Positions 2-49,354 of a stretch of DNA of 64,000 bases are shown here, piece after piece. The DNA comes from Betaproteobacteria bacterium (lineage in GTDB: Bacteria > Pseudomonadota > Gammaproteobacteria > Burkholderiales > CAIKXV01). The notes beneath the pieces were generated by a model. It was not told the origin of the DNA, searched no databases, and worked only from the letters and a program-made list of their open reading frames with translations. Made by a program: the position numbers and the translations under genes. Positions within the stretch are counted from its first letter, which is position 1. Each line of letters starts with the position of its first letter. Location: positions 142,491 to 206,490 of the forward strand of contig CANGYF010000004.1 in NCBI GenBank assembly GCA_947458265.1. Reading direction: 5' to 3'.

Positions 2-706
2 TCAGCCCCGGGATGTCCATTTGGCATTGCGTGCCTGCACCAGCGCGCGGGCCTCGGGCGAGAAACCGAGCCCGGCCACCTGGTGCGCGGCCTGCTGGAA
101 GAAGGCCGGACATTCGGATGGAAGGTGGGTCTCCAGCCGGCGGTAGGCCCGCTCCATCTTGCGCAGATCGCGCGAGCGGGTGGAGACGATCGCGGCATTG
201 ATCAGCAACTGCCGCCACGGCCGAAGCGGATCGGTCGAGGTGTGGTCGACCTGCAACCGGGCCGCGACATTGGCGATCACCGCCTCGTAGGCATCCGACA
301 GCGCGATGCAGGCGTCCAGGCTGCCGGCCAGGTTCGCCCGGTTGGCGAGCGCGGCCACCACCGGCCCGATCTGGCGCAACTGGCCCCGATGGCGCATGCA
401 CCACTGGGCGGCCTCGAGCGAGATGTCGATCACCGAGACACGCGCATTGCGCAGCTTTAGCCGATCGGCCCAGTTGCCCAGGTCGTGCAGGCATTCGAAT
501 ATCTGGTCCGCGATGCCGTTCACGTCCTCGGCCAGCACCTCGGCGGTCGGTCCGTAGTCGCGGTCGATGCGCTCGCAGTCGTCGAAGAACACATCGAGGG
601 CATCGACGAGGTTCGTCGGAGTGATCTTGTTGCCGGGCGGCACGCCCGAGAGATCGAATGCGGCGATGATTTCCCGCGCGGCCGCCTTGAGGCGCGCCCG
701 CATCAT
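2..706 (-). CDS. conserved hypothetical protein (234 aa), family not recognised
   Basis: ATG at 706 overlaps the msrB stop (ATGA, 703-706) and the ORF ends at TGA 2-4. The track ORF portion upstream of 706 lies inside msrB in another frame. Confidence 0.6.
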
Positions 707-1107
707 TCGGAGCCTGTCTTGTCCAGATGCAGGGCGGCCGAGTTCATGCAGTAGCGCAGGCCGGTCGGCGCCGGTCCGTCCTCGAACACGTGGCCCAGGT
801 GTGCGTCGCAGCGTGCGCACAGGACCTCGGTGCGCCGGCTGAACCAGCTGTTGTCTTCCGCGGTGGCCACCGCATCGCCCGCCAGGGGCTGGAAGAAGCT
901 CGGCCACCCGGTGCCCGAGTCGTACTTGGTGGAGGCGTCGAACAGCGGGTTGCTGCAGCACACGCAACGGTAGGTGCCGGCGTCCTTGGCATCCCAGTAA
1001 GCTCCGGTGAACGCGCGCTCGGTGCCGTGCCGGCGGGTCACTTCGTACTGCTCGGCGCTCAACTGGGCGCGCCACTCCTCGTCGGTCTTGCGGATCTTGT
1101 CTGTCAT
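703..1107 (-). CDS. msrB: peptide-methionine (R)-S-oxide reductase MsrB
   Basis: 134 aa. It has two CxxC pairs ([23 protein letters not shown]) and the RYCMNS catalytic Cys context typical of MsrB/SelR. Confidence 0.95.
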
Positions 1108-1166
1108 GATCGCGGTTCTGGCTGGATGGCTCGGCTGCTCGGTGGATACGGAAAGGAGAGACCCGG

Positions 1167-1544
1167 ATGACCCTTGCCTACTGGATGGTCCTCGCAGGAG
1201 CGATGTTGCCTTACCTGACGGTGGCGGTGGCGAAGTATCGTCCCGATTACGACAATGCTGCGCCTCGGGCGCAGCTCGCCGCGGCCGACGGACACCGGCT
1301 GCGCGCCTGGTGGGCGCACCTGAACCACTTCGAGGCTTTCCCGCCGTTCGCTGCAGGCGTCATTATTGCGCACCTCGCACAGGCTCGGCAGGATTGGGTG
1401 GACATCCTCGCCGTCGCTTTCGTGGCGCTGCGCTGCCTGTATGCGGTGCTGTACGTGGCCGATCGGCCGACCGCCCGGTCGCTCGTCTGGTCGGCGGCCT
1501 TCTTCTGCATGGTGGGCCTGTTCGTGGCGGCGGCGCTCGCCTGA
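1167..1544 (+). CDS. MAPEG-family small membrane protein
   Basis: 125 aa with several hydrophobic segments. The N-terminus ([15 protein letters not shown]) and the '[13 protein letters not shown]' block resemble bacterial MAPEG proteins. Confidence 0.75.
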
Positions 1545-1850
1545 TCGGGCGATGGCAGCAGGGCAAGCGGTGCGCTTCGGAGAGGGTGGTTGCACCGGTC
1601 GCGGCATGCCCGCACGGCGGCGAAATGTGCAAAAATCGAAAGCTGTCGACCCCGGCGCCAGTAATCAGTGACAGCGGCGCGTGACGCCGTCGTGTGATGA
1701 CGTCGCGCGATGTCGGTACCTGATCGCGGTAGCCCGTCGGCAGCGGCGCCGGTCGCCGGTCCGTCCCCAGTGACTGGACCGCCGTTCCAGCAGCGCCCAG
1801 GTCTTTCCAGGACACTTCAACACTCACAAAGCCTCTGAGAGGAAGCCAGC

Positions 1851-4538
<2,688 letters not shown>

Positions 4539-4607: not shown

Positions 4608-7313
<2,706 letters not shown>

Positions 7314-7370
7314 TAGGGCGGGCCGCTCTGATCGACTGAACCGGGCGGAGTCGTACCTTCAGGGGGCTGG

Positions 7371-7479
7371 GACGCGGGCATCGGGTAGCCCCTTCCGCTC
7401 ATGTCCTCCGGCTCCAGTCGGTCGCCCGACTGGAGCCTCCCCCTTTACTTCGCTCCAGGGGCTACCCGATACCCGCGTC
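7371..7479. repeat. ~110-nt long-hairpin repeat, copy 1
   Basis: Outer arms 7371-7392 (GACGCGGGCATCGGGTAGCCCC) and 7458-7479 (GGGGCTACCCGATACCCGCGTC) are complementary with 1 mismatch. An inner hairpin GGCTCCAGTCGG/CCGACTGGAGCC lies at 7411-7438. It carries the core blocks CCGCTCATGTCC (7395-7406) and TACTTCGCTCC (7446-7456). Confidence 0.7.
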
Positions 7480-7639
7480 CGTTCCACCCGCGTGCGGTAC
7501 TGCCGCCTTGGGCCGGGACGTCCGTCGTACGTTGAGCGACCATTTCGCCATGGTTGCGCGGCGCACGTTGGTTCCGTTGCAGCCATCCTGCCCGAACGCC
7601 GATGACGGCAATACCCCCTCTGGCCACAGCCCGGTGCTG

Positions 7640-7750
7640 ATCGAGGAGGCGGGGTGCCCTGCGGAGCGAAGTAGAGGAGGAGGCCCGGAGCCGCGCGAGC
7701 GGGTCTGGGCCGGGGGACATGAGCGGAGCAGGGCACCCCGTCTCCTCGAT
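7640..7750. repeat. ~110-nt long-hairpin repeat, copy 2 (inverted relative to copy 1)
   Basis: Outer arms 7640-7662 and 7728-7750 are complementary with 1 mismatch. It contains the exact reverse complements of the copy-1 core blocks: GGAGCGAAGTA (7663-7673) and GGACATGAGCGG (7715-7726). Confidence 0.7.
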
Positions 7751-7815
7751 CCGGCAAGGCTCCGTCGACCGATGGGCGGAGCAGCGCACCGGTCGTTGAT
7801 CGGGTAAGGCGATAC

Positions 7816-9258
7816 TCAGGCCGAGAACAGGTCCACGAACTGGTCGACCGGCATCGATTGCAGCTTGCCGGCATCCGCGCAGGCCTCGCGGATCAGCCGC
7901 TGCTGCTTCGGAGCGAAGCGCCGCGCCAGGTTGACCGCAAACTTGGCGTCGAGCAGCGGGTAGCCCTCCGCGCGGCGGCGGCGATGTCCGACCGGGTATT
8001 CGACCTCCACCTGCTGCGTGCTGGTCCCGTCCTTGAAGGTGACCTGCACCGCGTTGGCGATCGAGCGCTTCGCCGGATCGAGGTAGTCGCGGGTGTAGCG
8101 CGGTTCCTCGACGATCTCCATCCGGTCGCGCAGCGCGTCGATCCGCGGGTCCGCGGCCACGCCGTCCTCGTAGTCGGCCGCCACGAGGTTGCCCTTGATG
8201 AGACCGACCGCCGTCATGTACTGGATGCAGTGATCCCGGTCGGCCGGGTTGTGCAACGGCCCCCGCTTGTCGATGATGCGGATCGCCGATTCATGCGTGG
8301 TGATGGTGACCTTCTCGATATCCTCCAGTCGGTGCTTCACCAGCGGATGCAGCACCAGCGCGCATTCGACCGCGGTCTGCGCGTGGAACTCGGCCGGGAA
8401 AGAGATCTTGAACAGCACGTTCTCCATCACGTACGAGCCGAGCGGGCGGCCCAGCACCAGCGGCTGGCCCTTGAACAGCACGTCCTGGAAGCCCCAGGTC
8501 TTCGCGCTGAGCGCGGACGGATAGCCCATCTCGCCGCGCAGCGTCATCCATGCGATGCGCACCGCGCGCGAAGTCGCGTCGCCAGCGGCCCACGACTTGC
8601 GCGACCCGGCGTTCGGTGCGTGGCGGTAGGTGCGCAACGACTGCCCGTCGATCCAGGCGTTCGACACGGCGTCGATGACCTCGTCGCGCGTGCCGCCCAT
8701 CATCGCGGTCACCACCGCTGTCGAGGCCACCTTCACCAGCACGACATGGTCCAGGCCGACGCGGTTGAAGCTGTTCTCCAGCGCCAGCACGCCCTGGATC
8801 TCGTGCGCCTTGATCATCGCGGTGAGCACGTCGCGCACCGTGAGCGGCGCGAGGCCGCGCGCGACCCGCGTACGCGACAGCCAGTCGGCGGTGGCCAGGA
8901 TGCCGCCCAGGTTGTCCGACGGATGGCCCCACTCGGCGGCAAGCCAGGTATCGTTGAAATCGAGCCAGCGGATCATGGTGCCGATGTTGAACGCGGCCTG
9001 GACCGGGTCGAGCTGGTACGGCGTCCCCGGGACCTTCGCGCCGTTCGGAACGACCGTGCCTGGCACGATCGGGCCGAGCAGCTTGGTGCAGGCCGGGTAC
9101 TCCAGCGCCTCCAGGCCGCAGCCCAGGGTGTCGAGCAGGCAGTAGCGGGCGGTGTCGTAGGCCTCGGTGCTGTCGACCTGCGTCGACAGCACGTAGTCGG
9201 CGATATCGACCAGCAGCGCGTCGGGTTCGGGGCGGATGTTGGAGATCGGAGCGGACAT
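7816..9258 (-). CDS. prpD: 2-methylcitrate dehydratase (PrpD)
   Basis: 480 aa. The N-terminal '[14 protein letters not shown]' block and '[18 protein letters not shown]' are characteristic of PrpD proper. Confidence 0.9.
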
Positions 9259-38430: not shown

Positions 38431-38630
38431 CAGGATTCTCCCGGACAATAGAGACGAGTCTGCCGTGACCTGCGGCGGCGTGGCAAGCACGGCATCGGTG
38501 CCGGCAGCCCCGCCACCGGCAAGGCGGCAGGCGGTGCATGACGATAATGCCGGCAGGCCCGCCCGGGCCCTGAGCCGGACGCGCCCCGGCCGCCTTGGCC
38601 GCTACGGGCGTTCCAATGGAGGAGTATCCG

Positions 38631-39614
38631 ATGCCGAGAATCGATGTATTGACGTTTCGGGGCGTTGCCGTAGCGCTGCTGGTGGCAGCGCTGCCGGCGG
38701 CGCCCGTGCATGCACAGGCATGGCCGTCGAAGGCGGTGCGCATGATTGTTCCGTTCCCGCCGGGCGGTTCGACCGACATCTTCGGTCGGCTGATGGCCGA
38801 GGCACTGACCCGGCAACTGGGCGTGCAGGTCGTGGTCGACAATCGCGGCGGTGCAGGCGGCAACATCGGCGCCGCGCTCGCGGCCCGCGCGCCGGCCGAC
38901 GGCTACACGATCTCGATGTTCACGGTCGCGCAGAGCATTGCCCCTTCCGTGATGAAGCTCGACTTCGACCCGGCGAAGGATTTCACCCCGATCACGCTGA
39001 TCGCGCGCCTGCCCAGCATCCTGCTCGTGCATCCGTCCCTGCCGGTGCGCAACGTGAAGGAGTTGCTGGCACTGATGAAGAAGCGGCCGGGCGCGCTCAA
39101 CTATGCATCGACCGGTCCGGGTACCTCGCCGCACATGCTGATGGAAATGTTCCTGCTGATGTCCGGCACCAAGGCGACGCACATCGCCTACAAGGGGGCG
39201 AGTCCGGCGATGGTCGACCAGCTGGGCGGGATGGTCGAGATGGGCTTCACCACCGGCATCGGGCCTTCCCTCGAGGCTGCGCGCAACGGCAAGCTGCGCG
39301 CGATCGCGGTGTCTACCGCCGAGCGCTACGCCGCACTGCCGAACGTGCCGACGGTGGCCGAGGGCGGCGTGCCCGGCTTCGATGGCAGCTCCTGGCAGGG
39401 GCTGGTGGCGCCGGCGGGCCTCCCGAAGGACATCCTGGCACGGCTGAGCGGCGAGGCGGTCAAGTGGATCCAGTCTCCCGAAGGGCGGGAGCGGATCGCG
39501 CAGCAGGGTGGCAATCCCGGCGGCAATTCGCCCGAGGCCTTCGGGCAGTTCATCCAGGAAGAGATCGCGCGCTGGGCGAAGGTGGCCAGGGCGGCGAACG
39601 TGCGTACCAATTGA
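38631..39614 (+). CDS. Bug-family (TctC-like) substrate-binding protein
   Basis: 327 aa from ATG 38631 (RBS GGAGGAG). The signal peptide ends AQA|WPSK and is followed by 'VPFPPGGSTD'. Confidence 0.9.
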   Translation: MPRIDVLTFRGVAVALLVAALPAAPVHAQAWPSKAVRMIVPFPPGGSTDIFGRLMAEALTRQLGVQVVVDNRGGAGGNIGAALAARAPADGYTISMFTVAQSIAPSVMKLDFDPAKDFTPITLIARLPSILLVHPSLPVRNVKELLALMKKRPGALNYASTGPGTSPHMLMEMFLLMSGTKATHIAYKGASPAMVDQLGGMVEMGFTTGIGPSLEAARNGKLRAIAVSTAERYAALPNVPTVAEGGVPGFDGSSWQGLVAPAGLPKDILARLSGEAVKWIQSPEGRERIAQQGGNPGGNSPEAFGQFIQEEIARWAKVARAANVRTN

Positions 39615-43750: not shown

Positions 43751-44002
43751 GTCTCGCGCCGGAGGCGAGATTACAGACTGCGGCGCGCGTGCTGGCCGGG
43801 TACGCTGCCGGCATCACATGCGCGGCGGACGAAAGCCCACGGAGACCAACTTGAATGACATGAAGGCACCGGCCGCAGTCGGCCAGTCACCGCTGACCCC
43901 GCCCCAGGTGCGGGCGATGTATCCGGGCGCGCTTTGGTGTCGGATCGAGCGGATGCAGGCGCTGTGCAGCGAATGGACCGGCGCGCGCGCGTCGGCGGTC
44001 CC

Positions 44003-44920
44003 ATGAGTTTCGATGTGATCGTGGTGGGCGAGGGCATTGCCGGCCTGGCCACGGCGCGCGACTGTGCGCGGGCCGGCCTGCGCACCGGTACTGTCGAGCA
44101 GTTGATGTTCGGTGGGCTGGTGACCTCGATCAACGAGCTGGTCGACTGGCCTGCCGAGGGCGGCGACCCCTGCTCCGGCAGCGACGTGGCGACGAACTGG
44201 ATCACCGAGGCGGCCGATGCCGGGGTCGAGAGCCTGGGCGGCTGCGCGATCGGGCTGGCGAGCGCACCGGGCGGCCTGCTGCTGCACACCGATGCCGGCA
44301 GCCACGAGGCGCGCTGCGTGGTCGTGGCCTCCGGCGCGTCGCGCCGGCCGCTGGGCATCGCCGGGGAGGAAGACTACGCCGAGCGCGGCCTGTCGCATTG
44401 TGCCGACTGCGATGGCCCGCTGGTCAAGGGGGCCGACGTGGTGGTGGTCGGCGGTGGCGACAGTGCGCTGCAGGAGGCCGCGGTGCTGGCGCACTATGCG
44501 CGCACGGTACATGTCGTGCACCGGGGCAGCGCGTTTCGCGCGCGGCCGTCGGTGCGCGCGCTCTTCGAGCGCGCCTTCGAGGGCCGGCCCGATGCACTGC
44601 AGGTACACTGGCAATCGACGGTGTCGGCCATTGAAGGTGCCGGTGGCGTCGAGGCGGTCATCGTCGACGGGCCGTCCGGTGCGTCGCGGCTGCCGGTGCG
44701 CGCGGTGTATCCCTGCGTCGGCCTGGTGCCCAACAGCGGCTGGACCGGCCTGGCCACCGATGCGCAGGGTGCAATCGTCACCGATGACAGGCTGGCGGCG
44801 TCGTTGTCTGGAGTGTTCGCCGTCGGTGCGGTGCGCGCTGGCCATGGTGGTCGGCTGATCGACGCGGTAGCCGATGGCGCACTGGCCGCGAAGTCCGTGA
44901 AGGAGGCATTGCAATGCTGA
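44003..44920 (+). CDS. thioredoxin-reductase-like FAD/NAD(P)H disulfide oxidoreductase
   Basis: 305 aa from ATG 44003. It has the FAD fold 'VIVVGEGIAGL', a redox pair 'SHCADCDG' (canonical TrxB is CATCDG), 'VVVVGGGDSALQEA' and 'HRGSAFRA'. Confidence 0.85.
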   Translation: MSFDVIVVGEGIAGLATARDCARAGLRTGTVEQLMFGGLVTSINELVDWPAEGGDPCSGSDVATNWITEAADAGVESLGGCAIGLASAPGGLLLHTDAGSHEARCVVVASGASRRPLGIAGEEDYAERGLSHCADCDGPLVKGADVVVVGGGDSALQEAAVLAHYARTVHVVHRGSAFRARPSVRALFERAFEGRPDALQVHWQSTVSAIEGAGGVEAVIVDGPSGASRLPVRAVYPCVGLVPNSGWTGLATDAQGAIVTDDRLAASLSGVFAVGAVRAGHGGRLIDAVADGALAAKSVKEALQC

Positions 44921-45585
44921 AGCTCTGGGGAAGGCTCACGTCCAACCGCACGCAGAAGGTGCTGTGGACGCTGGCCGAGGTCGGCATCGAGTTCGAGATG
45001 ATCCTCGCCAGCGGCGTGATGGGTGCCGGCGGCCATGTCGCGAAGGGCAACAAGCCGTTCGGCCTGGTCGACACACCGGAGTACCGCGCGCTCAACCCGA
45101 ACGGGCGAATCCCGACGATCGACGACGACGGCTACGTGCTCTGGGAGTCGAACGCGATCTGCCGCTATCTGGTGATGCAGTACGCACCGGAGGCGATGTA
45201 CGGCAACGACGTGCGCACCTTCGCCTCGGCGACCCGCTGGCAGGATTTTGAGAACAACGAGCTGCTGCCGCCGCAGCACGAACTGGTGATGGAGCTGGTG
45301 CGCCTGCCGCCGGAGCAGCGCAGCGCCGACAACCTGGCCAAGGCCCGTGCCGCGTTCAACAAGCGGCTGGAGATCATCGAGGCACAGCTCGCGCGCACCC
45401 GCTACATGGTCGGCGACCGGTTCACGTTCGGCGACATCCCGATCGGCATCCGGGTGCATCGCTGGGTGCTGCTCGAGGCCGAGCGTCCGCGGTTTCCGAA
45501 CATCGAGCGCTGGTATGCCTCGCTGATCGAGCGGCCTGCCTTCCAGCGCTTCAGCGCAGACCCGGCCAACCATGTCGAGGGGTGA
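44914..45585 (+). CDS. glutathione S-transferase family protein
   Basis: 223 aa with the N-terminal thioredoxin-like part 'NPNGRIPTIDDDGYVLWESNAICRYL'. It overlaps the preceding gene by 7 nt. Confidence 0.9.
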   Translation: MLKLWGRLTSNRTQKVLWTLAEVGIEFEMILASGVMGAGGHVAKGNKPFGLVDTPEYRALNPNGRIPTIDDDGYVLWESNAICRYLVMQYAPEAMYGNDVRTFASATRWQDFENNELLPPQHELVMELVRLPPEQRSADNLAKARAAFNKRLEIIEAQLARTRYMVGDRFTFGDIPIGIRVHRWVLLEAERPRFPNIERWYASLIERPAFQRFSADPANHVEG

Positions 45586-45690
45586 TTGCGCCGGGGACGT
45601 CGGGGACGCACGCCCGTGCCTGCAATAGGTAAACTCCGGCCATCCTGAGCCGGCCCGTGAAGCCGGCGCACCATGGCCCCGGAGGACTTG

Positions 45691-46710
45691 ATGGACCGAT
45701 TCGATACCCCCACGCGCCCAGCCGCGCACACGCCTGCCACATCGACGCTGGCACTGACCCTGGCACTGGCCGCGTCTGCCGCGGCGATGCTCCCCGTCGG
45801 CGCGGCTGCCCAGGCACAGGCCTGGCCGGTCAAGCCGGTGCGGGTGATCTTCCCCTATCCCCCTGGCGGCGGCACCGACGCGGTCGGGCGCATCGCGACC
45901 AACGCGCTCACCGAGCAGCTCGGGCAGACCTTCATCGTCGATACCCGGCCTGGTGCCAGCGGCCAGATCGGCACCGAGGTCGCCAGCAAGTCGCCGGCCG
46001 ACGGCTACACGCTGGTCCTGGGCAACGTCGCGCCGCTGGCGATCCTGCCGGCGTCCAACCCGAAGCTGCCCTACGATCCGCTGCGTGACCTGGCTCCGAT
46101 CAGCCTGATCGCCACCTCCGATTACATCCTCACCGTGCACCCGTCGCTGCCGGTGAAGAACCTGAGTGACCTGCTCGCGCTCGCGAAGAAGCGCCCGGGC
46201 GAACTCAGCTTCGCCTCCAGCGGCGCGCTGGGCGGGCCGCACCTGGCGGGCGAACTGCTGAACCTGCTCGGTGGCGTCAACATGCTGCATGTGCCCTACA
46301 AGGGCAATGGCCCGGCGGTGGTCGCCGTGCTGTCTGGCGAGGCGACGATGCTCTATGGCACCGGGCCAGCCGTGGTTCCATTCGCGCAGCAGGGCAGGAT
46401 GCGCATCATCGCCACCACCGGCCTCACGCGCACGATCAAGGACGTGCCGGCGATCGCCGAGCAGATCAAGGACTTCCAGGTCACCCAGTGGTACGGGCTG
46501 CTGGCGCCCGCGGGTACGCCGCGCGAGATCATCGACCGCCTGGCGAAGGAGACCGCGCGCGCCGTGGCCGATCCGAAGAATGCGGCGGCGCTGGTGAAGC
46601 TCGGCGCCGATCCCATGACGAACAGCCCCGCCGACTTCCGGCGCTTCATCGAGGGCGAGATCGCGCGTTACACCAAGGTGGTGAAGGCGGCCAAGCTGAC
46701 CGCGCAATGA
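45691..46710 (+). CDS. Bug-family (TctC-like) substrate-binding protein
   Basis: 339 aa from ATG 45691 (RBS GGAGGA 4 nt upstream; ATG 45673 is an alternative). The signal ends AQA|WPVKP and is followed by 'FPYPPGGGTD'. Confidence 0.9.
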   Translation: MDRFDTPTRPAAHTPATSTLALTLALAASAAAMLPVGAAAQAQAWPVKPVRVIFPYPPGGGTDAVGRIATNALTEQLGQTFIVDTRPGASGQIGTEVASKSPADGYTLVLGNVAPLAILPASNPKLPYDPLRDLAPISLIATSDYILTVHPSLPVKNLSDLLALAKKRPGELSFASSGALGGPHLAGELLNLLGGVNMLHVPYKGNGPAVVAVLSGEATMLYGTGPAVVPFAQQGRMRIIATTGLTRTIKDVPAIAEQIKDFQVTQWYGLLAPAGTPREIIDRLAKETARAVADPKNAAALVKLGADPMTNSPADFRRFIEGEIARYTKVVKAAKLTAQ

Positions 46711-47735
46711 GTGGCGGGCAGGACCTCGACCCGTTCGAGTTCTTCTTCGACAAGCCGTGGAGTGACGGCCTGCCGGTGGTGACACCGACGCAGGAGCGGC
46801 TCGACTGGATGCTCGGTGGCACCCGGCGCGATCCGACCGAGGTGGTCGGGCCGGTGCCCCCGGCGATGAACGTCGCCACCGTGCGCGATGTCGCACTGCA
46901 TGCGGTGATGGCCGGCTGCCGCCCCGACTACCTGCCGGTGGTGCTCGGCGGCCTCGCGCTGATCCTGCAGGAGCCGTTCAACATGAACGGCGTGCAGGGC
47001 ACGATGCATGGCGTCGCACCGCTGATGATCGTCAACGGGCCGTACGCGGCGAAGATCGGGCTGCACGGCGGCAACGGTTGCCTCGGGCCGGGCTTTCGCG
47101 CGAACGCCACCATCGGCCGCGCGATCCGTCTGCTGCTGCTCAACCTCGGCGGCGGCATCCCGGGCCTGGCTTCGGCCACCGTGCTGTCGACGCCGCAGCG
47201 CTACACCGCCTGCTGGACCGAGAACACCGAGCGCAGCCCGTGGGAGACGCTTGCCGTGTCGCGCGGCTACCGCGCGGACGAAGACGTGATCACCTGCGCC
47301 ATGGTCGAGAGCCCGCGCCTGTGCTACGACGACGTGAGTCAGGAGCCCGTACGCCTGCTCACCGGCATCGCCGACACGATGGCTGCGATGAGCAGCTGGA
47401 ACATGCACGTCCGCTCCGACATGGTGGTGGTGATGGGGCCCGAGCAGGCAACGGTCTGCGATCGCGCCGGCTGGCCTCGAGCGCGGGTGCATGAATGGCT
47501 GGTCGCCAACGCCGGCATGAAGGTGGTGGACATGCGCCGCGGCGGCAACTGGCGCGACGAGCGGGCACGGAAGATCGGTGTCGATCCGTCGGACGACGCT
47601 GCGTTCGTGCCGGTGATCAAGGACGCGCGCGACCTGCACCTGATGGTTGCGGGAGGGTGGGGTCCCGTGAGCGCGGTGGCGCATGGCTGGGGCGGCGGCA
47701 GCCGCGCGGTGCAGGGCACCTACCGCACGGATTGA
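46707..47735 (+). CDS. conserved protein of unrecognised family, paralog A (342 aa)
   Basis: ATG 46707 overlaps the Bug stop (ATGA). The coding signal is strong, with high third-position GC. About two thirds of positions are identical by eye to the next gene. I can name no domain. Confidence 0.8.
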   Translation: MSGGQDLDPFEFFFDKPWSDGLPVVTPTQERLDWMLGGTRRDPTEVVGPVPPAMNVATVRDVALHAVMAGCRPDYLPVVLGGLALILQEPFNMNGVQGTMHGVAPLMIVNGPYAAKIGLHGGNGCLGPGFRANATIGRAIRLLLLNLGGGIPGLASATVLSTPQRYTACWTENTERSPWETLAVSRGYRADEDVITCAMVESPRLCYDDVSQEPVRLLTGIADTMAAMSSWNMHVRSDMVVVMGPEQATVCDRAGWPRARVHEWLVANAGMKVVDMRRGGNWRDERARKIGVDPSDDAAFVPVIKDARDLHLMVAGGWGPVSAVAHGWGGGSRAVQGTYRTD

Positions 47736-47778: not shown

Positions 47779-48798
47779 GTGATCGACGAGTTCGAATTCT
47801 TCCTCGAGAAGCCGTGGTCGGACGGGCTTCCGGTGGTGACACCGACCGAGGCGCGGCTGGCCCCCTTCCTGGCGGCAGCCGGGCGCGACCCGGACGAGCC
47901 GATCGGCCGCGTGCCGCCAGCGATGGAGCCGGTCACGGTGCGTATCGCTGCGATCCATGCGCTGATGGCCGGCTGCCGTCCCGAGTACCTGCCGGTCGTG
48001 CTCGGCGCGCTGCCGCTGGTCCTGCGCGACGAGTTCAACCTGAACGGCGTGCAGGGCACGATGCATGGCGTGGCACCCCTGATGATCGTCAACGGCCCGC
48101 ATGCGGCGAAGATCGGGCTCAATGGCGGCAACGGCTGCTTCGGCCCCGGTTTTCGCGCCAACGCGACCATCGGCCGTGCGATCCGGCTGATGCTGCTCAA
48201 CCTCGGCGGCGGCATGGCCGGCATCGCCTCGGCCACCATCTTCGCGACGCCGATGCGCTACACCGCGTGCCTCACCGAGAACGTCGCACGCAGCCCGTGG
48301 GATAGCCTCGCTGCCTCGAAAGGCTACGCGGCTGGCGATGACGTGATCACCTGCGCGATGGTCGAGAGCCCGCGCCTGCACTTCGACGACGTGAGCCAGG
48401 AGCCCGAGCGCCTGCTGACCGGCATCGCCGACGGCATGACTGCGCTCGGTTCATGGAACATGCATGCCCGCTCGGACATGGTGGTCGCCATGGGTCCGCA
48501 GCATGCGACGATCTGCGCGCAGGCCGGCATGAGTCGCGAAGACGTGCACCGCTGGCTGGTCGAACACGCCGGGCGTACGGTCGGCGACCTCAAGCGTGGC
48601 GGTAACTGGCGGCGCGAGCGTGCGCTGCAGTTCCCGATCAAGGTCGACCCCGACGACGATACCTGCTTCATCCCGACGCTGAAGGATCCGGTCGACCTGC
48701 AACTGATCGTCGCCGGTGGCTGGGGTCCATGCACCGCGATCTGCCATGGCTGGAGCGGCGGCAGCCGTGCGGTGCATGGCACCTATGCCGTCCGATGA
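47779..48798 (+). CDS. conserved protein of unrecognised family, paralog B (339 aa)
   Basis: GTG start at 47779 follows GGGAAGGGA. It shares blocks with paralog A: KPWSDGLPVVTPT, NGVQGTMHGVAPLMIVNGP, GGNGC(L/F)GPGFRANATIGRAIRL, DVITCAMVESPRL, GGWGP..HGW(G/S)GGSRAV. Confidence 0.8.
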   Translation: MIDEFEFFLEKPWSDGLPVVTPTEARLAPFLAAAGRDPDEPIGRVPPAMEPVTVRIAAIHALMAGCRPEYLPVVLGALPLVLRDEFNLNGVQGTMHGVAPLMIVNGPHAAKIGLNGGNGCFGPGFRANATIGRAIRLMLLNLGGGMAGIASATIFATPMRYTACLTENVARSPWDSLAASKGYAAGDDVITCAMVESPRLHFDDVSQEPERLLTGIADGMTALGSWNMHARSDMVVAMGPQHATICAQAGMSREDVHRWLVEHAGRTVGDLKRGGNWRRERALQFPIKVDPDDDTCFIPTLKDPVDLQLIVAGGWGPCTAICHGWSGGSRAVHGTYAVR

Positions 48799-48826
48799 AC
48801 CGAACACCCCTGGAAGGAAAGCAACC

Positions 48827-49354
48827 ATGAACGAACTGCCCTTCATCGACCCGACCGCGGGCGGCAACCGTCCGCCGGTCGCCCTCGCACCGCGTCCGAT
48901 GGATCTCGCCGGCAAGGTCGTGGCGATGATCGACAACACCAAGGAGCAGGGCAGCCTGATCCTCGAGACGGTCGCCCAGGTGCTGCGCGAACGCCATGGC
49001 GTCGCCAAGGTGATCATCCGGCGCAAGGAGCACTACTCCAAACCGGCCACCGACCAGCTGATCGACGAACTCGCGCAGGAGGCCCACCTGGCCGTCGCTG
49101 CCGTGGGTGGGTGAGGGTCCTGCACGTTGTGCAGTGTGCACGACACCGTGGAATTCGAGAAACGCGGCATCCCCGCGACCGTCATCATCACGCAGGCCTT
49201 CCGCAATGCCTGCATCTTCCAGTTCCGGTCCAAGGGCATGGCCGGCCATCCGTACATCGAGCTGCCGCATCCGATCAGCAACATGACCGAAGACGAAATG
49301 CGCGAAGTGACGCTGAAGGAAGTCGATGCGCTGGTGAAGCAGCTGGTCGCCTGA
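48827..49354 (+). CDS. candidate selenoprotein with U-G-S-C-T-L-C motif (in-frame TGA at 49112-49114 read as Sec, codon 96 of 175)
   Basis: ATG 48827 lies 8 nt after GGAAGGA. Track ORFs 48716..49114 and 49127..49354 are in the same frame and separated only by TGA plus four sense codons. The downstream part lacks an ATG and an RBS. A hairpin follows the TGA directly. Confidence 0.78.
49117..49144 (+). promoter_or_regulatory. SECIS-like hairpin immediately 3' of the in-frame UGA
   Basis: GUC-C-UGCAC (49117-49125) pairs with GUGCA-C-GAC (49136-49144), giving 8 Watson-Crick pairs and one C.C mismatch. The stem can extend by G.U, U.G and U-A pairs to a GUGC tetraloop at 49129-49132. The hairpin starts 3 nt after the UGA. 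Confidence 0.45.

What the first reader, a model, noticed from the sequence alone, without database searches (positions are those of the whole stretch)
48827..49354. In-frame UGA fuses two ORF-track fragments into a U-G-S-C-T-L-C selenoprotein candidate
ORF 48716..49114 stops at TGA 49112-49114, and ORF 49127..49354 is in the same frame (both start coordinates are 2 mod 3). Only four sense codons (GGG TCC TGC ACG) lie between them. The 75-aa downstream piece has no ATG and no Shine-Dalgarno; its only possible start is a TTG. Reading UGA as Sec gives ...HLAVAAVGG-U-GSCTLCSVHDTVEFEKRGIPATVIIT..., which places Sec in a U-x-x-C-x-x-C redox context. The likely true start is ATG 48827, 8 nt after GGAAGGA, making Sec codon 96 of 175. 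From memory only, and needing verification: NCBI uses the family name 'UGSC family (seleno)protein', and glycine-reductase selenoprotein GrdB carries Sec in a UxxCxxC context followed by a similar 'E..GIP..' segment. The function of this small protein is unknown to me. A standard gene caller would truncate or split it.
Basis: partly seen in the sequence, partly recalled or inferred. Interest (0 to 1): 0.88.

Follow-up and report, generated by a model that had tools for sequence, protein, structure and literature searches.

The report
UGSC-family selenoprotein gene with SECIS
The in-frame UGA is very likely a real selenocysteine codon in a 175-residue protein of the known but functionally uncharacterised UGSC family, and the gene is consistently paired with an unannotated 340-residue partner family and redox genes that suggest how to find its function.

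Summary
ATG 48827 to TGA 49354 is one 175-codon gene with an in-frame TGA at 49112-49114 (codon 96), in the motif GG-U-GSCTLC.

**Family.** It passes the curated NCBIfam model "UGSC family (seleno)protein" (133.5 bits, cutoff 125) and Pfam PF24696. All 89 close homologs fetched carry TGA at this column. Distant full-length homologs carry Cys there (54 of 55).

**SECIS.** An 8-bp hairpin with a GUG loop (49126-49144) starts 11 nt after the UGA. Its synonymous sites are frozen, and it shows compensatory changes across clades.

**Novelty.** The family has been known since 2007-2008, so this is a new member of a known kind. Its function is still unknown.

**New context found here:**
- UGSC is the last gene of an operon: TrxR-like flavoprotein, GST, TctC, X1, X2, UGSC.
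- X is a large 340-aa family with no Pfam or NCBIfam model. It is adjacent to UGSC in at least 72 of 89 cases and is fused to it in some organisms.
- A high-confidence model of a Cys homolog is flavodoxin-like, not thioredoxin-like.

**Working model.** UGSC is a Sec/Cys redox subunit serving the X enzyme, recycled by the TrxR-like reductase.

**Limit.** Sec machinery could not be checked, because only 64 kb of the genome is available.

The parts
43934..44920 (+). Thioredoxin-reductase-like flavoprotein with a C-A-D-C redox motif. First gene of the putative operon. The true start is probably ATG 44003.
   Evidence: Pfam Pyr_redox_2. NCBIfam TIGR01292 thioredoxin-disulfide reductase aligns over its full length at 189 bits, below the 343 cutoff, so it is a divergent paralog. 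Its stop overlaps the GST start. Orthologs sit upstream of the cassette in L009-L017.
44914..45585 (+). Glutathione S-transferase family protein.
   Evidence: Pfam GST_N and GST_C. A GST gene lies upstream of TctC-X-X-UGSC in about 20 loci.
45673..46710 (+). TctC/Bug-family periplasmic carboxylate-binding protein.
   Evidence: Pfam PF03401, 208.7 bits. Its stop overlaps the X1 start (ATGA). TctC precedes the X-X tandem in 34 of the 38 loci that carry two X genes.
46707..47735 (+). X1, a 342-aa protein of an unannotated family that partners UGSC.
   Evidence: No Pfam or NCBIfam hit. 70% identical to X2. It carries the family's invariant residues DGLP, MAGC, ANATIGR and SPW.
47779..48798 (+). 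X2, a 339-aa paralog of X1, immediately upstream of UGSC.
   Evidence: More than 5,700 homologs, all named "hypothetical" and none with a Pfam domain. AF2 model has pLDDT 85.4 and pTM 0.87. The best PDB fold match is class I fumarate hydratase, but it is weak: E 1e-4, TM 0.3.
48812..48818 (+). Shine-Dalgarno-like GGAAGGA, 8 nt before ATG 48827.
   Evidence: Read directly from the sequence.
48827..49354 (+). UGSC-family selenoprotein gene: 175 codons, with Sec at codon 96.
   Evidence: NF041046 133.5 bits against cutoff 125. PF24696 162 bits spanning residues 7-174, that is, across the TGA. The N-terminus MNELPFIDPTAGG is conserved in homologs.
49112..49114 (+). In-frame UGA read as selenocysteine (Sec96).
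   Evidence: TGA in 89 of 89 close homologs. Cys in 54 of 55 full-length distant homologs.
49121..49123 (+). Cys99, the resolving cysteine of the U-G-S-C motif. Cys102 (49130-49132) completes UxxCxxC in this clade only.
   Evidence: Cys in 51 of 55 representatives at this column. The third Cys is present in only 22 of 55.
49126..49144 (+). Bacterial SECIS hairpin GUUGUGCA-GUG-UGCACGAC: 8 bp with a GUG loop, starting 11 nt after the UGA.
   Evidence: RNAalifold consensus over 85 sequences. All 7 synonymous sites inside it are frozen, at 0-0.09 bits against 0.5-1.7 bits outside. Compensatory changes occur at pairs 49129/49141 and 49132/49138, and 100% of cells remain paired across clades. It uses the rare codons TTG and AGT.

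Best explanation
Window 48827-49354 is a single gene for a 175-residue selenoprotein of the UGSC family.

**Recoding.** UGA 49112-49114 is decoded as selenocysteine. An 8-bp hairpin with a GUG loop (49126-49144), 11 nt downstream, acts as a bacterial SECIS for SelB and Sec-tRNA(Sec). This step is inferred from conservation.

**Fold and active site.** The protein is a small flavodoxin-like alpha/beta domain, modelled on a homolog. Sec96 and Cys99 (U-G-S-C) sit at the end of strand 3 and the start of helix 3. There they can cycle between selenol/thiol and selenenylsulfide. This is inferred.

**Operon and partner.** It is the last gene of a co-directional operon: TrxR-like flavoprotein, GST, TctC binding protein, X1, X2, UGSC. 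It works physically with the X proteins. The link is shown by near-obligate adjacency and by natural UGSC-X fusions.

**Most likely mechanism (inferred, about 35-40% likely).** X1/X2 bind an imported organic acid. UGSC supplies the reactive selenol, either as a reductant for the invariant Cys66 of X or as a GrdB/PrdB-like nucleophile on the substrate. The TrxR-like flavoprotein then re-reduces the oxidised U-C couple with NAD(P)H, or GSH does so via the GST.
For: **Family membership:** NF041046 above its curated cutoff and PF24696 spanning the UGA.

**Sec column:** TGA in 89 of 89 close genes with GG-U-GSCTLCSVHD invariant. Cys in 54 of 55 full-length representatives, and the resolving Cys in 51 of 55.

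**Both halves are coding:** the codon-position divergence is equal on both sides of the UGA.

**SECIS:**
- RNAalifold picks 49126-49144.
- Synonymous sites inside the hairpin are frozen.
- There are compensatory G-C to A-U and C-G to G-C changes, and 56 of 56 cells are paired against 14-59% when the partners are slid.
- The rare codons TTG and AGT are fixed.

**Local recoding:** TGA is the normal stop here.

**Partnership with X:**
- An X gene lies immediately upstream of UGSC in 72 of 89 cases. Eight more are truncated contigs that show X at the contig edge.
- Divergent UGSC/X pairs (35-40% identity) occur in the opposite gene order in L065, Acidovorax, Paracoccus, Natrinema and Halorientalis.
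- Fusion proteins exist: P0398, P0429, P0492, P0267 and the Variovorax 545-aa protein.

**Redox supply:**
- The TrxR-like gene with a CxxC motif heads the operon here and in L009-L017.
- The Variovorax plasmid carries TrxR-like, TctC and a UGSC-X fusion. The Arthrobacter plasmid carries trxB, trxA, X and UGSC.
- A Trx-like (CPTC)-X fusion, P0320, also exists.

**Fold:** AF2 model of the Cys homolog P0386 has pLDDT 93.5 with strictly alternating beta/alpha units. PDB matches are flavodoxin-like proteins.

**Remote GrdB homology** covers the Sec region.

**Sec machinery next to a family member:** selB lies 4.4 kb from a Sec-type UGSC-X pair in Paracoccus ferrooxidans.
Against: - No selA, selB, selD or tRNA-Sec lies in the window. 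The rest of the genome is unavailable, so the capacity to insert Sec is not shown for this organism.
- There is no experimental evidence for Se incorporation in any UGSC protein in the literature searched.
- The hairpin is nearly invariant within the close clade, so covariation rests on a few divergent sequences. An alternative fold of the same palindromic stretch exists.
The fold is therefore inferred from a homolog that is 38% identical.
- The nature of X is unresolved. It has no sequence-family hits, only a weak fold match (TM 0.3), and hhalign against TtdA and FumA is negative.
- Substrate and chemistry are conjecture.
- Four UGSC genes (L053, L059, L062, L064) have no X gene within 6 kb upstream.
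Confidence: 0.85

Rival explanations
1. UGA 49112 is an ordinary stop. The locus encodes a 95-aa protein, plus either an independent 75-aa protein starting at TTG 49127 or nothing downstream.
For: Gene callers annotate it this way in every metagenome and MAG, and in two GenBank/RefSeq records. TGA is the usual stop in this genome. Sec machinery is not shown for this genome.
Against: - One Pfam/NCBIfam domain spans both pieces.
- The downstream piece has no ATG or SD.
- The frame and the four linking codons are invariant in 89 genes.
- Full-length homologs have Cys at the stop position.
- A conserved, covarying hairpin sits at the canonical SECIS distance.
- The stop is never TAA or TAG.
Confidence: 0.04
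2. The gene is a pseudogene, or the TGA is a sequencing error in what should be a Cys (TGC/TGT) codon.
For: A single-base change separates TGA from TGC or TGT.
Against: The same TGA is found in 89 of 89 independent assemblies from many studies and in cultured isolates. Purifying selection acts on both halves.
Confidence: 0.01
3. UGSC is a real selenoprotein but a free-standing, general thiol/selenol oxidoreductase, the Trx-like antioxidant suggested in the 2008 literature. On this view its adjacency to X reflects co-regulation rather than a shared enzyme.
For: It has a UxxC motif at a helix N-terminus. The literature assigns it to Trx-like redox proteins (PMC2398784, PMC13188914). GST and TrxR-like genes are nearby. 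Four UGSC genes lack an X gene within 6 kb.
Against: - Covalent UGSC-X fusions occur in several lineages.
- Adjacency is kept across bacteria and haloarchaea and in both gene orders.
- The modelled fold is flavodoxin-like, and there are no thioredoxin-fold matches in the top 50.
Confidence: 0.1

Closest known systems
UGSC family (seleno)protein (NCBIfam NF041046, Pfam PF24696). This is the "UGSC-containing protein" of Zhang and Gladyshev, seen in Hyphomonas neptunium, the GOS metagenomes and an Olavius symbiont.
   Same: Scores above the curated cutoffs. Same length class. Same U-G-S-C motif at the same position, and the same Sec/Cys alternation. The literature reports 255 Sec against 21 Cys forms in GOS, with higher abundance in non-marine waters (PMC2398784). 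This fits the freshwater Burkholderiales relatives found here.
   Different: Nothing essential differs, so it is a member. This clade has an extra Cys (UGSCTLC) that only 22 of 55 representatives share. The published guess of a Trx-like fold is not supported by the model.
Selenoprotein B of the glycine, sarcosine, betaine and D-proline reductases (GrdB, GrdF, GrdH, PrdB; TIGR01917, TIGR01918, PF07355).
   Same: - Weak but consistent HMM similarity of UGSC residues 72-164 to GrdB positions 322-409, the region that carries Sec.
- The same UxxC(xxC) motif (PMC13188914; PMC2398784 Table 2).
- Operon association with thioredoxin reductase and thioredoxin. For the grd operons this rests on my own knowledge.
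   Different: - Scores are far below the cutoffs: 19 against 602 bits and 15 against 65.
- UGSC has 175 aa, against about 430 for GrdB.
- No GrdA, GrdE, PrdA or Gly_reductase domain is nearby.
- The hosts are aerobic Burkholderiales and haloarchaea, not amino-acid-fermenting anaerobes.
E. coli fdhF-type bacterial SECIS. From my own knowledge, the minimal element is an upper stem-loop 11 nt downstream of UGA, with G/U in the apical loop bound by SelB.
   Same: A hairpin begins 11 nt after the UGA, and its apical loop GUG starts with G-U. It lies inside the coding sequence.
   Different: It has a shorter 3-nt loop and no bulged U. No Rfam model matched. SelB binding is untested.
Thioredoxin, glutaredoxin and GrdA-type small redox proteins.
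   Same: A small protein with a U/CxxC couple at a helix N-terminus, with a TrxR-like reductase encoded alongside.
   Different: The modelled fold is flavodoxin-like, with five alternating beta-alpha units, and not the thioredoxin fold.

Membership tests
UGSC family (NF041046 / PF24696) | Score at or above the curated HMM cutoff over the whole domain. | tested here: met
   NF041046 133.5 bits against cutoff 125, profile positions 2-146 of 147. PF24696 162.4 bits against cutoff 25, profile positions 3-171 of 172.
UGSC family (NF041046 / PF24696) | A U/C-G-S-C motif, with Sec or Cys alternating at the first position. | tested here: met
   The window has U-G-S-C. The column is TGA in 89 of 89 close genes and Cys in 54 of 55 full-length representatives. 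The second Cys is present in 51 of 55.
Bacterial selenoprotein gene (SelB-dependent recoding) | A SECIS stem-loop shortly downstream of the UGA, conserved at the RNA level. | tested here: met
   Hairpin at 49126-49144. Synonymous sites are frozen. RNAalifold gives the same consensus. There are 2 pairs with compensatory changes, and 100% of cells are paired.
Bacterial selenoprotein gene (SelB-dependent recoding) | The genome encodes selA, selB, selC (tRNA-Sec) and selD. | not testable with these tools
   None is present in the 64-kb window (ARAGORN; tblastn with E. coli SelA, SelB and SelD). The rest of the genome is not available. A family member in Paracoccus ferrooxidans lies 4.4 kb from selB.
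Bacterial selenoprotein gene (SelB-dependent recoding) | Selenium is actually incorporated at the UGA position. | not testable with these tools
   This needs 75Se labelling or mass spectrometry.
GrdB/PrdB selenoprotein B (TIGR01917, TIGR01918, PF07355) | Score above the family cutoff, with the full-length architecture of about 430 aa (GrdB) or about 240 aa (PrdB). | tested here: not met
   19.0 bits against 602.2, and 15.2 bits against 65.45. Only the C-terminal 88 profile positions match. No PF07355 hit appears even at E <= 10.
GrdB/PrdB selenoprotein B (TIGR01917, TIGR01918, PF07355) | A UxxCxxC (GrdB) or UxxC (PrdB) motif. | tested here: met
   UGSCTLC at codons 96-102. The motif definitions come from PMC13188914 and PMC2398784.
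GrdB/PrdB selenoprotein B (TIGR01917, TIGR01918, PF07355) | Partner genes for a pyruvoyl proprotein (GrdE or PrdA) and for GrdA. | tested here: not met
   The neighbours are TrxR-like, GST, TctC and X1/X2. X has no Pfam hit in any of 111 members.
Thioredoxin-fold oxidoreductases | Thioredoxin fold. | tested here: not met
   The AF2 model of the Cys homolog P0386 (pLDDT 93.5) is a strictly alternating beta/alpha fold. The top 50 PDB matches are flavodoxin-like, lumazine synthase or G-domain proteins, and none is thioredoxin-like. This was tested on a homolog that is 38% identical, not on the window protein itself.

The most novel reading that the evidence does not exclude
UGSC and the unannotated X family together form a previously undescribed two-component enzyme. 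In some organisms the two are fused. The enzyme is selenium-dependent in Burkholderiales and some Alphaproteobacteria, and cysteine-dependent in actinobacteria and haloarchaea. It would act on an imported organic acid, with its own TrxR-like reductase. On this reading it is an aerobic, distant evolutionary cousin of the Sec-bearing module of glycine and proline reductase. X would be a new catalytic fold family of more than 5,000 sequences with an invariant Cys (MAGC) facing the Sec.
Probability: 0.4. Interest if true: 0.7.

Novelty: new member of a known kind. Interest (0 to 1): 0.4.

Why it matters
For annotation, the gene is a true selenoprotein that automatic callers split or truncate. Two public isolate records show the same mistake.

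Biologically, UGSC is one of the most abundant selenoprotein families in aquatic metagenomes, yet it has had no function for almost twenty years. This analysis turns that open question into concrete experiments. The leads are the near-obligate pairing and fusion with the X family, the recurrent thioredoxin-reductase-like gene and carboxylate-binding protein, and the existence of cultured carriers (Variovorax boronicumulans, Paracoccus, Acidovorax sp. T1, Arthrobacter, haloarchaea).

Tried and rejected
- **Rfam.** There was no SECIS or other RNA family at the site, either at gathering threshold or at E <= 10.
- **Single-sequence folding.** The region is not more stable than shuffles. The SECIS call therefore rests on comparative data. 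Two alternative hairpins, 49120-49134 and the longer 49115-49147 fold, were rejected. Their outer or lower pairs are broken in many homologs, and the L071 double change fits only the 49126-49144 stem.
- **PDB sequence searches.** UGSC and X, as single sequences and as profiles, gave nothing significant.
- **X against class I fumarase and tartrate dehydratase.** hhalign was negative, so the Foldseek hit (E 1e-4, TM 0.3) is treated as a weak lead only.
- **sel genes.** Searches of the window and of all fetched loci found none, apart from selB in the Paracoccus locus.
- **ComA-like gene.** It lies next to UGSC-X in three distant contexts but is absent from the window's clade, so it was not used in the model.
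- **Genome-wide UGA reassignment.** Rejected, because TGA terminates 37 of 45 genes.

Full report
**1. Observation**

The sequence is exactly as described.
- ATG 48827 is preceded by GGAAGGA (48812-48818), 8 nt upstream.
- It opens a frame that meets TGA at 49112-49114 and continues in frame to TGA 49352-49354.
- The four codons GGG TCC TGC ACG separate the TGA from TTG 49127. That TTG is the only possible start of the 75-aa ORF that gene finders call.
- Read through, the product has 175 residues with position 96 in the motif AAVGG-U-GSCTLCSVHDT.

This is not a chance open frame of a 67% G+C genome.
- It is the only TGA in the window that has coding-type GC3/GC2 and 50 stop-free codons on both sides, apart from two ordinary junctions between adjacent genes.
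- In 85 distinct homologous sequences, pairwise divergence at codon positions 1/2/3 is 0.20/0.13/0.48 upstream of the TGA and 0.19/0.13/0.47 downstream. Both halves are therefore under the same purifying selection in this frame.
- TGA is the normal terminator here (37 of 45 genes), so the read-through must be site-specific.

**2. Family**

With Cys substituted for U, the protein scores 133.5 bits on NCBIfam NF041046 "UGSC family (seleno)protein" (curated cutoff 125). It scores 162 bits on Pfam PF24696 (UGSC), with the match spanning residues 7-174, that is, across the TGA.

The literature knows this family as the "UGSC-containing protein".
- It was first noted in Hyphomonas neptunium and an Olavius symbiont (PMC1976440).
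- It is among the most abundant selenoprotein families in the GOS metagenomes, with 255 Sec forms against 21 Cys forms, and is enriched in non-marine samples (PMC2398784).
- It was found in 26 of about 5,200 genomes (PMC5029168).
- It is still listed as functionally uncharacterised in a 2026 review (PMC13188914).

**3. Sec/Cys column**
- The 120 best database homologs are almost all 96 aa long and cover 54% of the query. They are truncated at the same codon.
- Contigs carrying them show the gene split into 96 + 75 aa pieces that both hit PF24696.
- I fetched 80 genomic loci, mostly freshwater, groundwater and soil Burkholderiales or Betaproteobacteria MAGs. The closest are 98% identical and come from Lake Mendota, Rimov and Loclat bins. 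Every one of 89 genes has TGA at this column, never TAA, TAG or a sense codon, inside an invariant GG-U-GSCTLCSVHD.
- A full HMMER scan of 1.84 billion representatives with the C-terminal half found 227 relatives. In 55 full-length representatives of about 175-200 aa, the column holds Cys in 54 (Ser in 1). The resolving Cys three residues later is present in 51, and the third Cys (UxxCxxC) in only 22.
- This is the classic signature of a selenoprotein family. The conserved redox unit is (U/C)-G-x-C.

**4. SECIS**
- From +12 to +34 after the TGA, the nucleotide sequence is invariant in 85 distinct sequences. The 7 synonymous third positions in it have entropy 0-0.09 bits, whereas flanking third positions have 0.5-1.7 bits.
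- The frozen block coincides exactly with an 8-bp hairpin, GUUGUGCA-GUG-UGCACGAC, at 49126-49144. RNAalifold predicts the same hairpin independently.
- The only variant in the clade (L071) changes both partners of one pair, G-C to A-U at 49129/49141.
- Divergent Sec-type UGSC genes have a hairpin of the same size, loop (GUG) and distance, although the encoded peptide differs (SSW or TSW instead of TLC). These are the L065 paralog, the Acidovorax sp. T1 plasmid and Paracoccus ferrooxidans pFER4.
- In those genes pair 49132/49138 is switched from C-G to G-C. Across the seven sequences all 56 pair cells are standard pairs, against 14-59% when the partners are slid.
- The hairpin forces the rare codons TTG (3.9% of Leu) and AGT (3.4% of Ser).
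- The stem begins 11 nt after the UGA and the loop starts with G-U. From my own knowledge this matches the E. coli fdhF minimal SECIS geometry. No Rfam family covers it.

**5. Surroundings**

UGSC ends a co-directional gene string with short or overlapping junctions.

| Coordinates | Gene |
|---|---|
| 43934-44920 | TrxR-like flavoprotein with a CADC motif. It aligns full-length to TIGR01292 but scores below the cutoff. |
| 44914-45585 | GST |
| 45673-46710 | TctC/Bug binding protein |
| 46707-47735 | X1 |
| 47779-48798 | X2 |
| 48827-49354 | UGSC |

A convergent methyltransferase-like gene follows UGSC.

X1 and X2 are 70% identical paralogs of a family with more than 5,700-8,000 database clusters. 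All are called "hypothetical" and none has a Pfam or NCBIfam hit.

**6. UGSC and X belong together**
- An X gene lies within 400 nt upstream of UGSC in 72 of 89 cases. Eight more are truncated contigs that show X at the edge.
- 38 loci have two X genes in tandem, and 34 of these are preceded by TctC.
- Pairs that have diverged to 30-40% identity keep the adjacency, in the opposite order or flanking UGSC. This holds in L065, Acidovorax, Paracoccus, and the haloarchaea Natrinema and Halorientalis.
- Single polypeptides joining UGSC (Cys form), a linker and X exist: P0398 (560 aa), P0429 (574 aa), P0492, P0466, P0267, and a 545-aa protein on a Variovorax boronicumulans plasmid. This is very probably the "UGSC/Unknown_1 fusion" mentioned without follow-up in 2008.
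- A Trx-like (CPTC)-X fusion also exists (P0320).
- X has one invariant cysteine (Cys66, in MAGC). It also has the invariant motifs DGLP, ANATIGR, E167 and SPW across bacteria and archaea.

**7. Redox supply**

A TrxR-like gene recurs in three separate settings.
- In the window's clade, L009-L017.
- In Variovorax, as NAD(P)/FAD oxidoreductase (CTAC motif), then TctC, then the UGSC-X fusion.
- In Arthrobacter sp. ERGS1:01, as trxB, trxA, X, UGSC.

Other recurrent neighbours all point to organic-acid catabolism. They are GST, ApbA-like reductase, family III CoA-transferase with HMG-CoA/CoA-ester lyase, MmgE/PrpD, and TctC or TAXI-TRAP binding proteins.

**8. Structures**
- That model has pLDDT 93.5 and five strictly alternating beta-alpha units. 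The redox Cys lies between strand 3 and helix 3.
- Foldseek against the PDB returns flavodoxin-like proteins (azoreductases, FMN reductases, flavodoxin domains), lumazine synthases and G-domains at TM about 0.4-0.5. There is no thioredoxin-fold protein in the top 50. The published suggestion of a Trx-like fold is therefore not supported.
- X2 models well (pLDDT 85.4, pTM 0.87). Its best PDB matches, class I Fe-S fumarate hydratases, are weak (E 1e-4, TM 0.3) and are not confirmed by hhalign.
- X lacks the three-Cys cluster ligands such enzymes need. Its fold relationship stays open.

**9. Relation to GrdB and PrdB**
- NCBIfam models for GrdB, GrdF, GrdH and the selenoprotein-B subfamily hit UGSC residues 72-164 (profile positions 322-409) at E = 5e-4 to 8e-3. 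A divergent paralog does so too.
- The motif is the same: UxxCxxC in GrdB and UxxC in PrdB.
- Scores are far below the cutoffs, the large N-terminal part is absent, and no GrdA, GrdE or PrdA genes are present.
- UGSC is therefore not a GrdB. It plausibly shares the ancestry and the chemistry of its Sec module.

**10. Verdict**

The feature is a new member of a known selenoprotein family, so the Sec call itself is not novel.

Three things are worth carrying forward. They are the well-defined SECIS, the flavodoxin-like fold, and above all the near-obligate partnership with the unannotated X family and a TrxR-like reductase. Together they give a testable model for a family that has lacked a function since its discovery.

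The main gap is that Sec-insertion genes could not be looked for outside the 64-kb window. The only direct link is selB lying 4.4 kb from a UGSC-X pair in Paracoccus ferrooxidans.

Noticed in passing
window 46707-47735 and 47779-48798: Two 70%-identical paralogs of a large protein family (more than 5,700-8,000 clusters at 90% identity) that has no Pfam or NCBIfam model and is annotated "hypothetical" everywhere. Invariant residues are DGLP, MAGC (Cys66), ANATIGR, E167 and SPW. The AF2 model is confident, but it has only a weak PDB fold match, to class I fumarate hydratase.
   Followed up: partly
window 43934-44920: A divergent thioredoxin-reductase paralog with a C-A-D-C active-site motif. It aligns full-length to TIGR01292 but scores below the cutoff. 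It heads the operon. Similar genes precede X/UGSC in Variovorax and Arthrobacter plasmids.
   Followed up: partly
L095 6977-7492 (Acidovorax sp. T1 plasmid p2-T1) and L097 6001-6570 (Paracoccus ferrooxidans pFER4): Public isolate records miss the Sec codon. RefSeq lists only a 96-aa "hypothetical protein" in Acidovorax. GenBank lists two hypothetical ORFs in Paracoccus, where selB lies 4.4 kb downstream.
   Followed up: yes
L065 1854-2711; L093 3666-4454; L094 4494-4961: A ComA-like ((2R)-phospho-3-sulfolactate synthase family, PF02679) gene lies next to UGSC-X in three distant lineages: a betaproteobacterial MAG, Arthrobacter and Natrinema. It is absent from the window's clade.
   Followed up: partly
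P0320 (database protein): A thioredoxin-like domain with a CPTC motif is fused to the N-terminus of an X-family protein. This is a second kind of redox-domain fusion to X.
   Followed up: no
L051 978-1499 and 2670-3191; L080 and L088 about 300-3430; L098 4902-7564: The module has expanded in some genomes. There are two tandem X-UGSC modules in L051. There are three or four X paralogs in a row about 2.6 kb upstream of UGSC in L080 and L088. In Halorientalis, X genes lie on both sides of UGSC.
   Followed up: no
L053, L059, L062, L064: A UGSC subclade with the variant motif SVHDAIEFEKRGI has no X gene within 6 kb upstream. These are the only clear exceptions to the pairing.
   Followed up: no
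window 38595-39614 and 45673-46710: There are two TctC/Bug-family binding-protein genes within 8 kb, and many more in the related loci. None has adjacent TctA or TctB membrane components. This pattern of orphan Bug genes is typical of Burkholderiales.
   Followed up: no
window 49112-49150: The palindromic stretch UGCAC-GUUG-UGCA-GUG-UGCAC can also form two alternative hairpins. One of them is the single-sequence MFE fold. Comparative data favour the 49126-49144 stem.
   Followed up: yes
L013, L036, L039, L046 and others (record titles): Several MAG records that carry this betaproteobacterial cassette are titled "Bordetella parapertussis" or "uncultured Streptomycetaceae". These are probably taxonomic mislabels of metagenome bins.
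   Followed up: no
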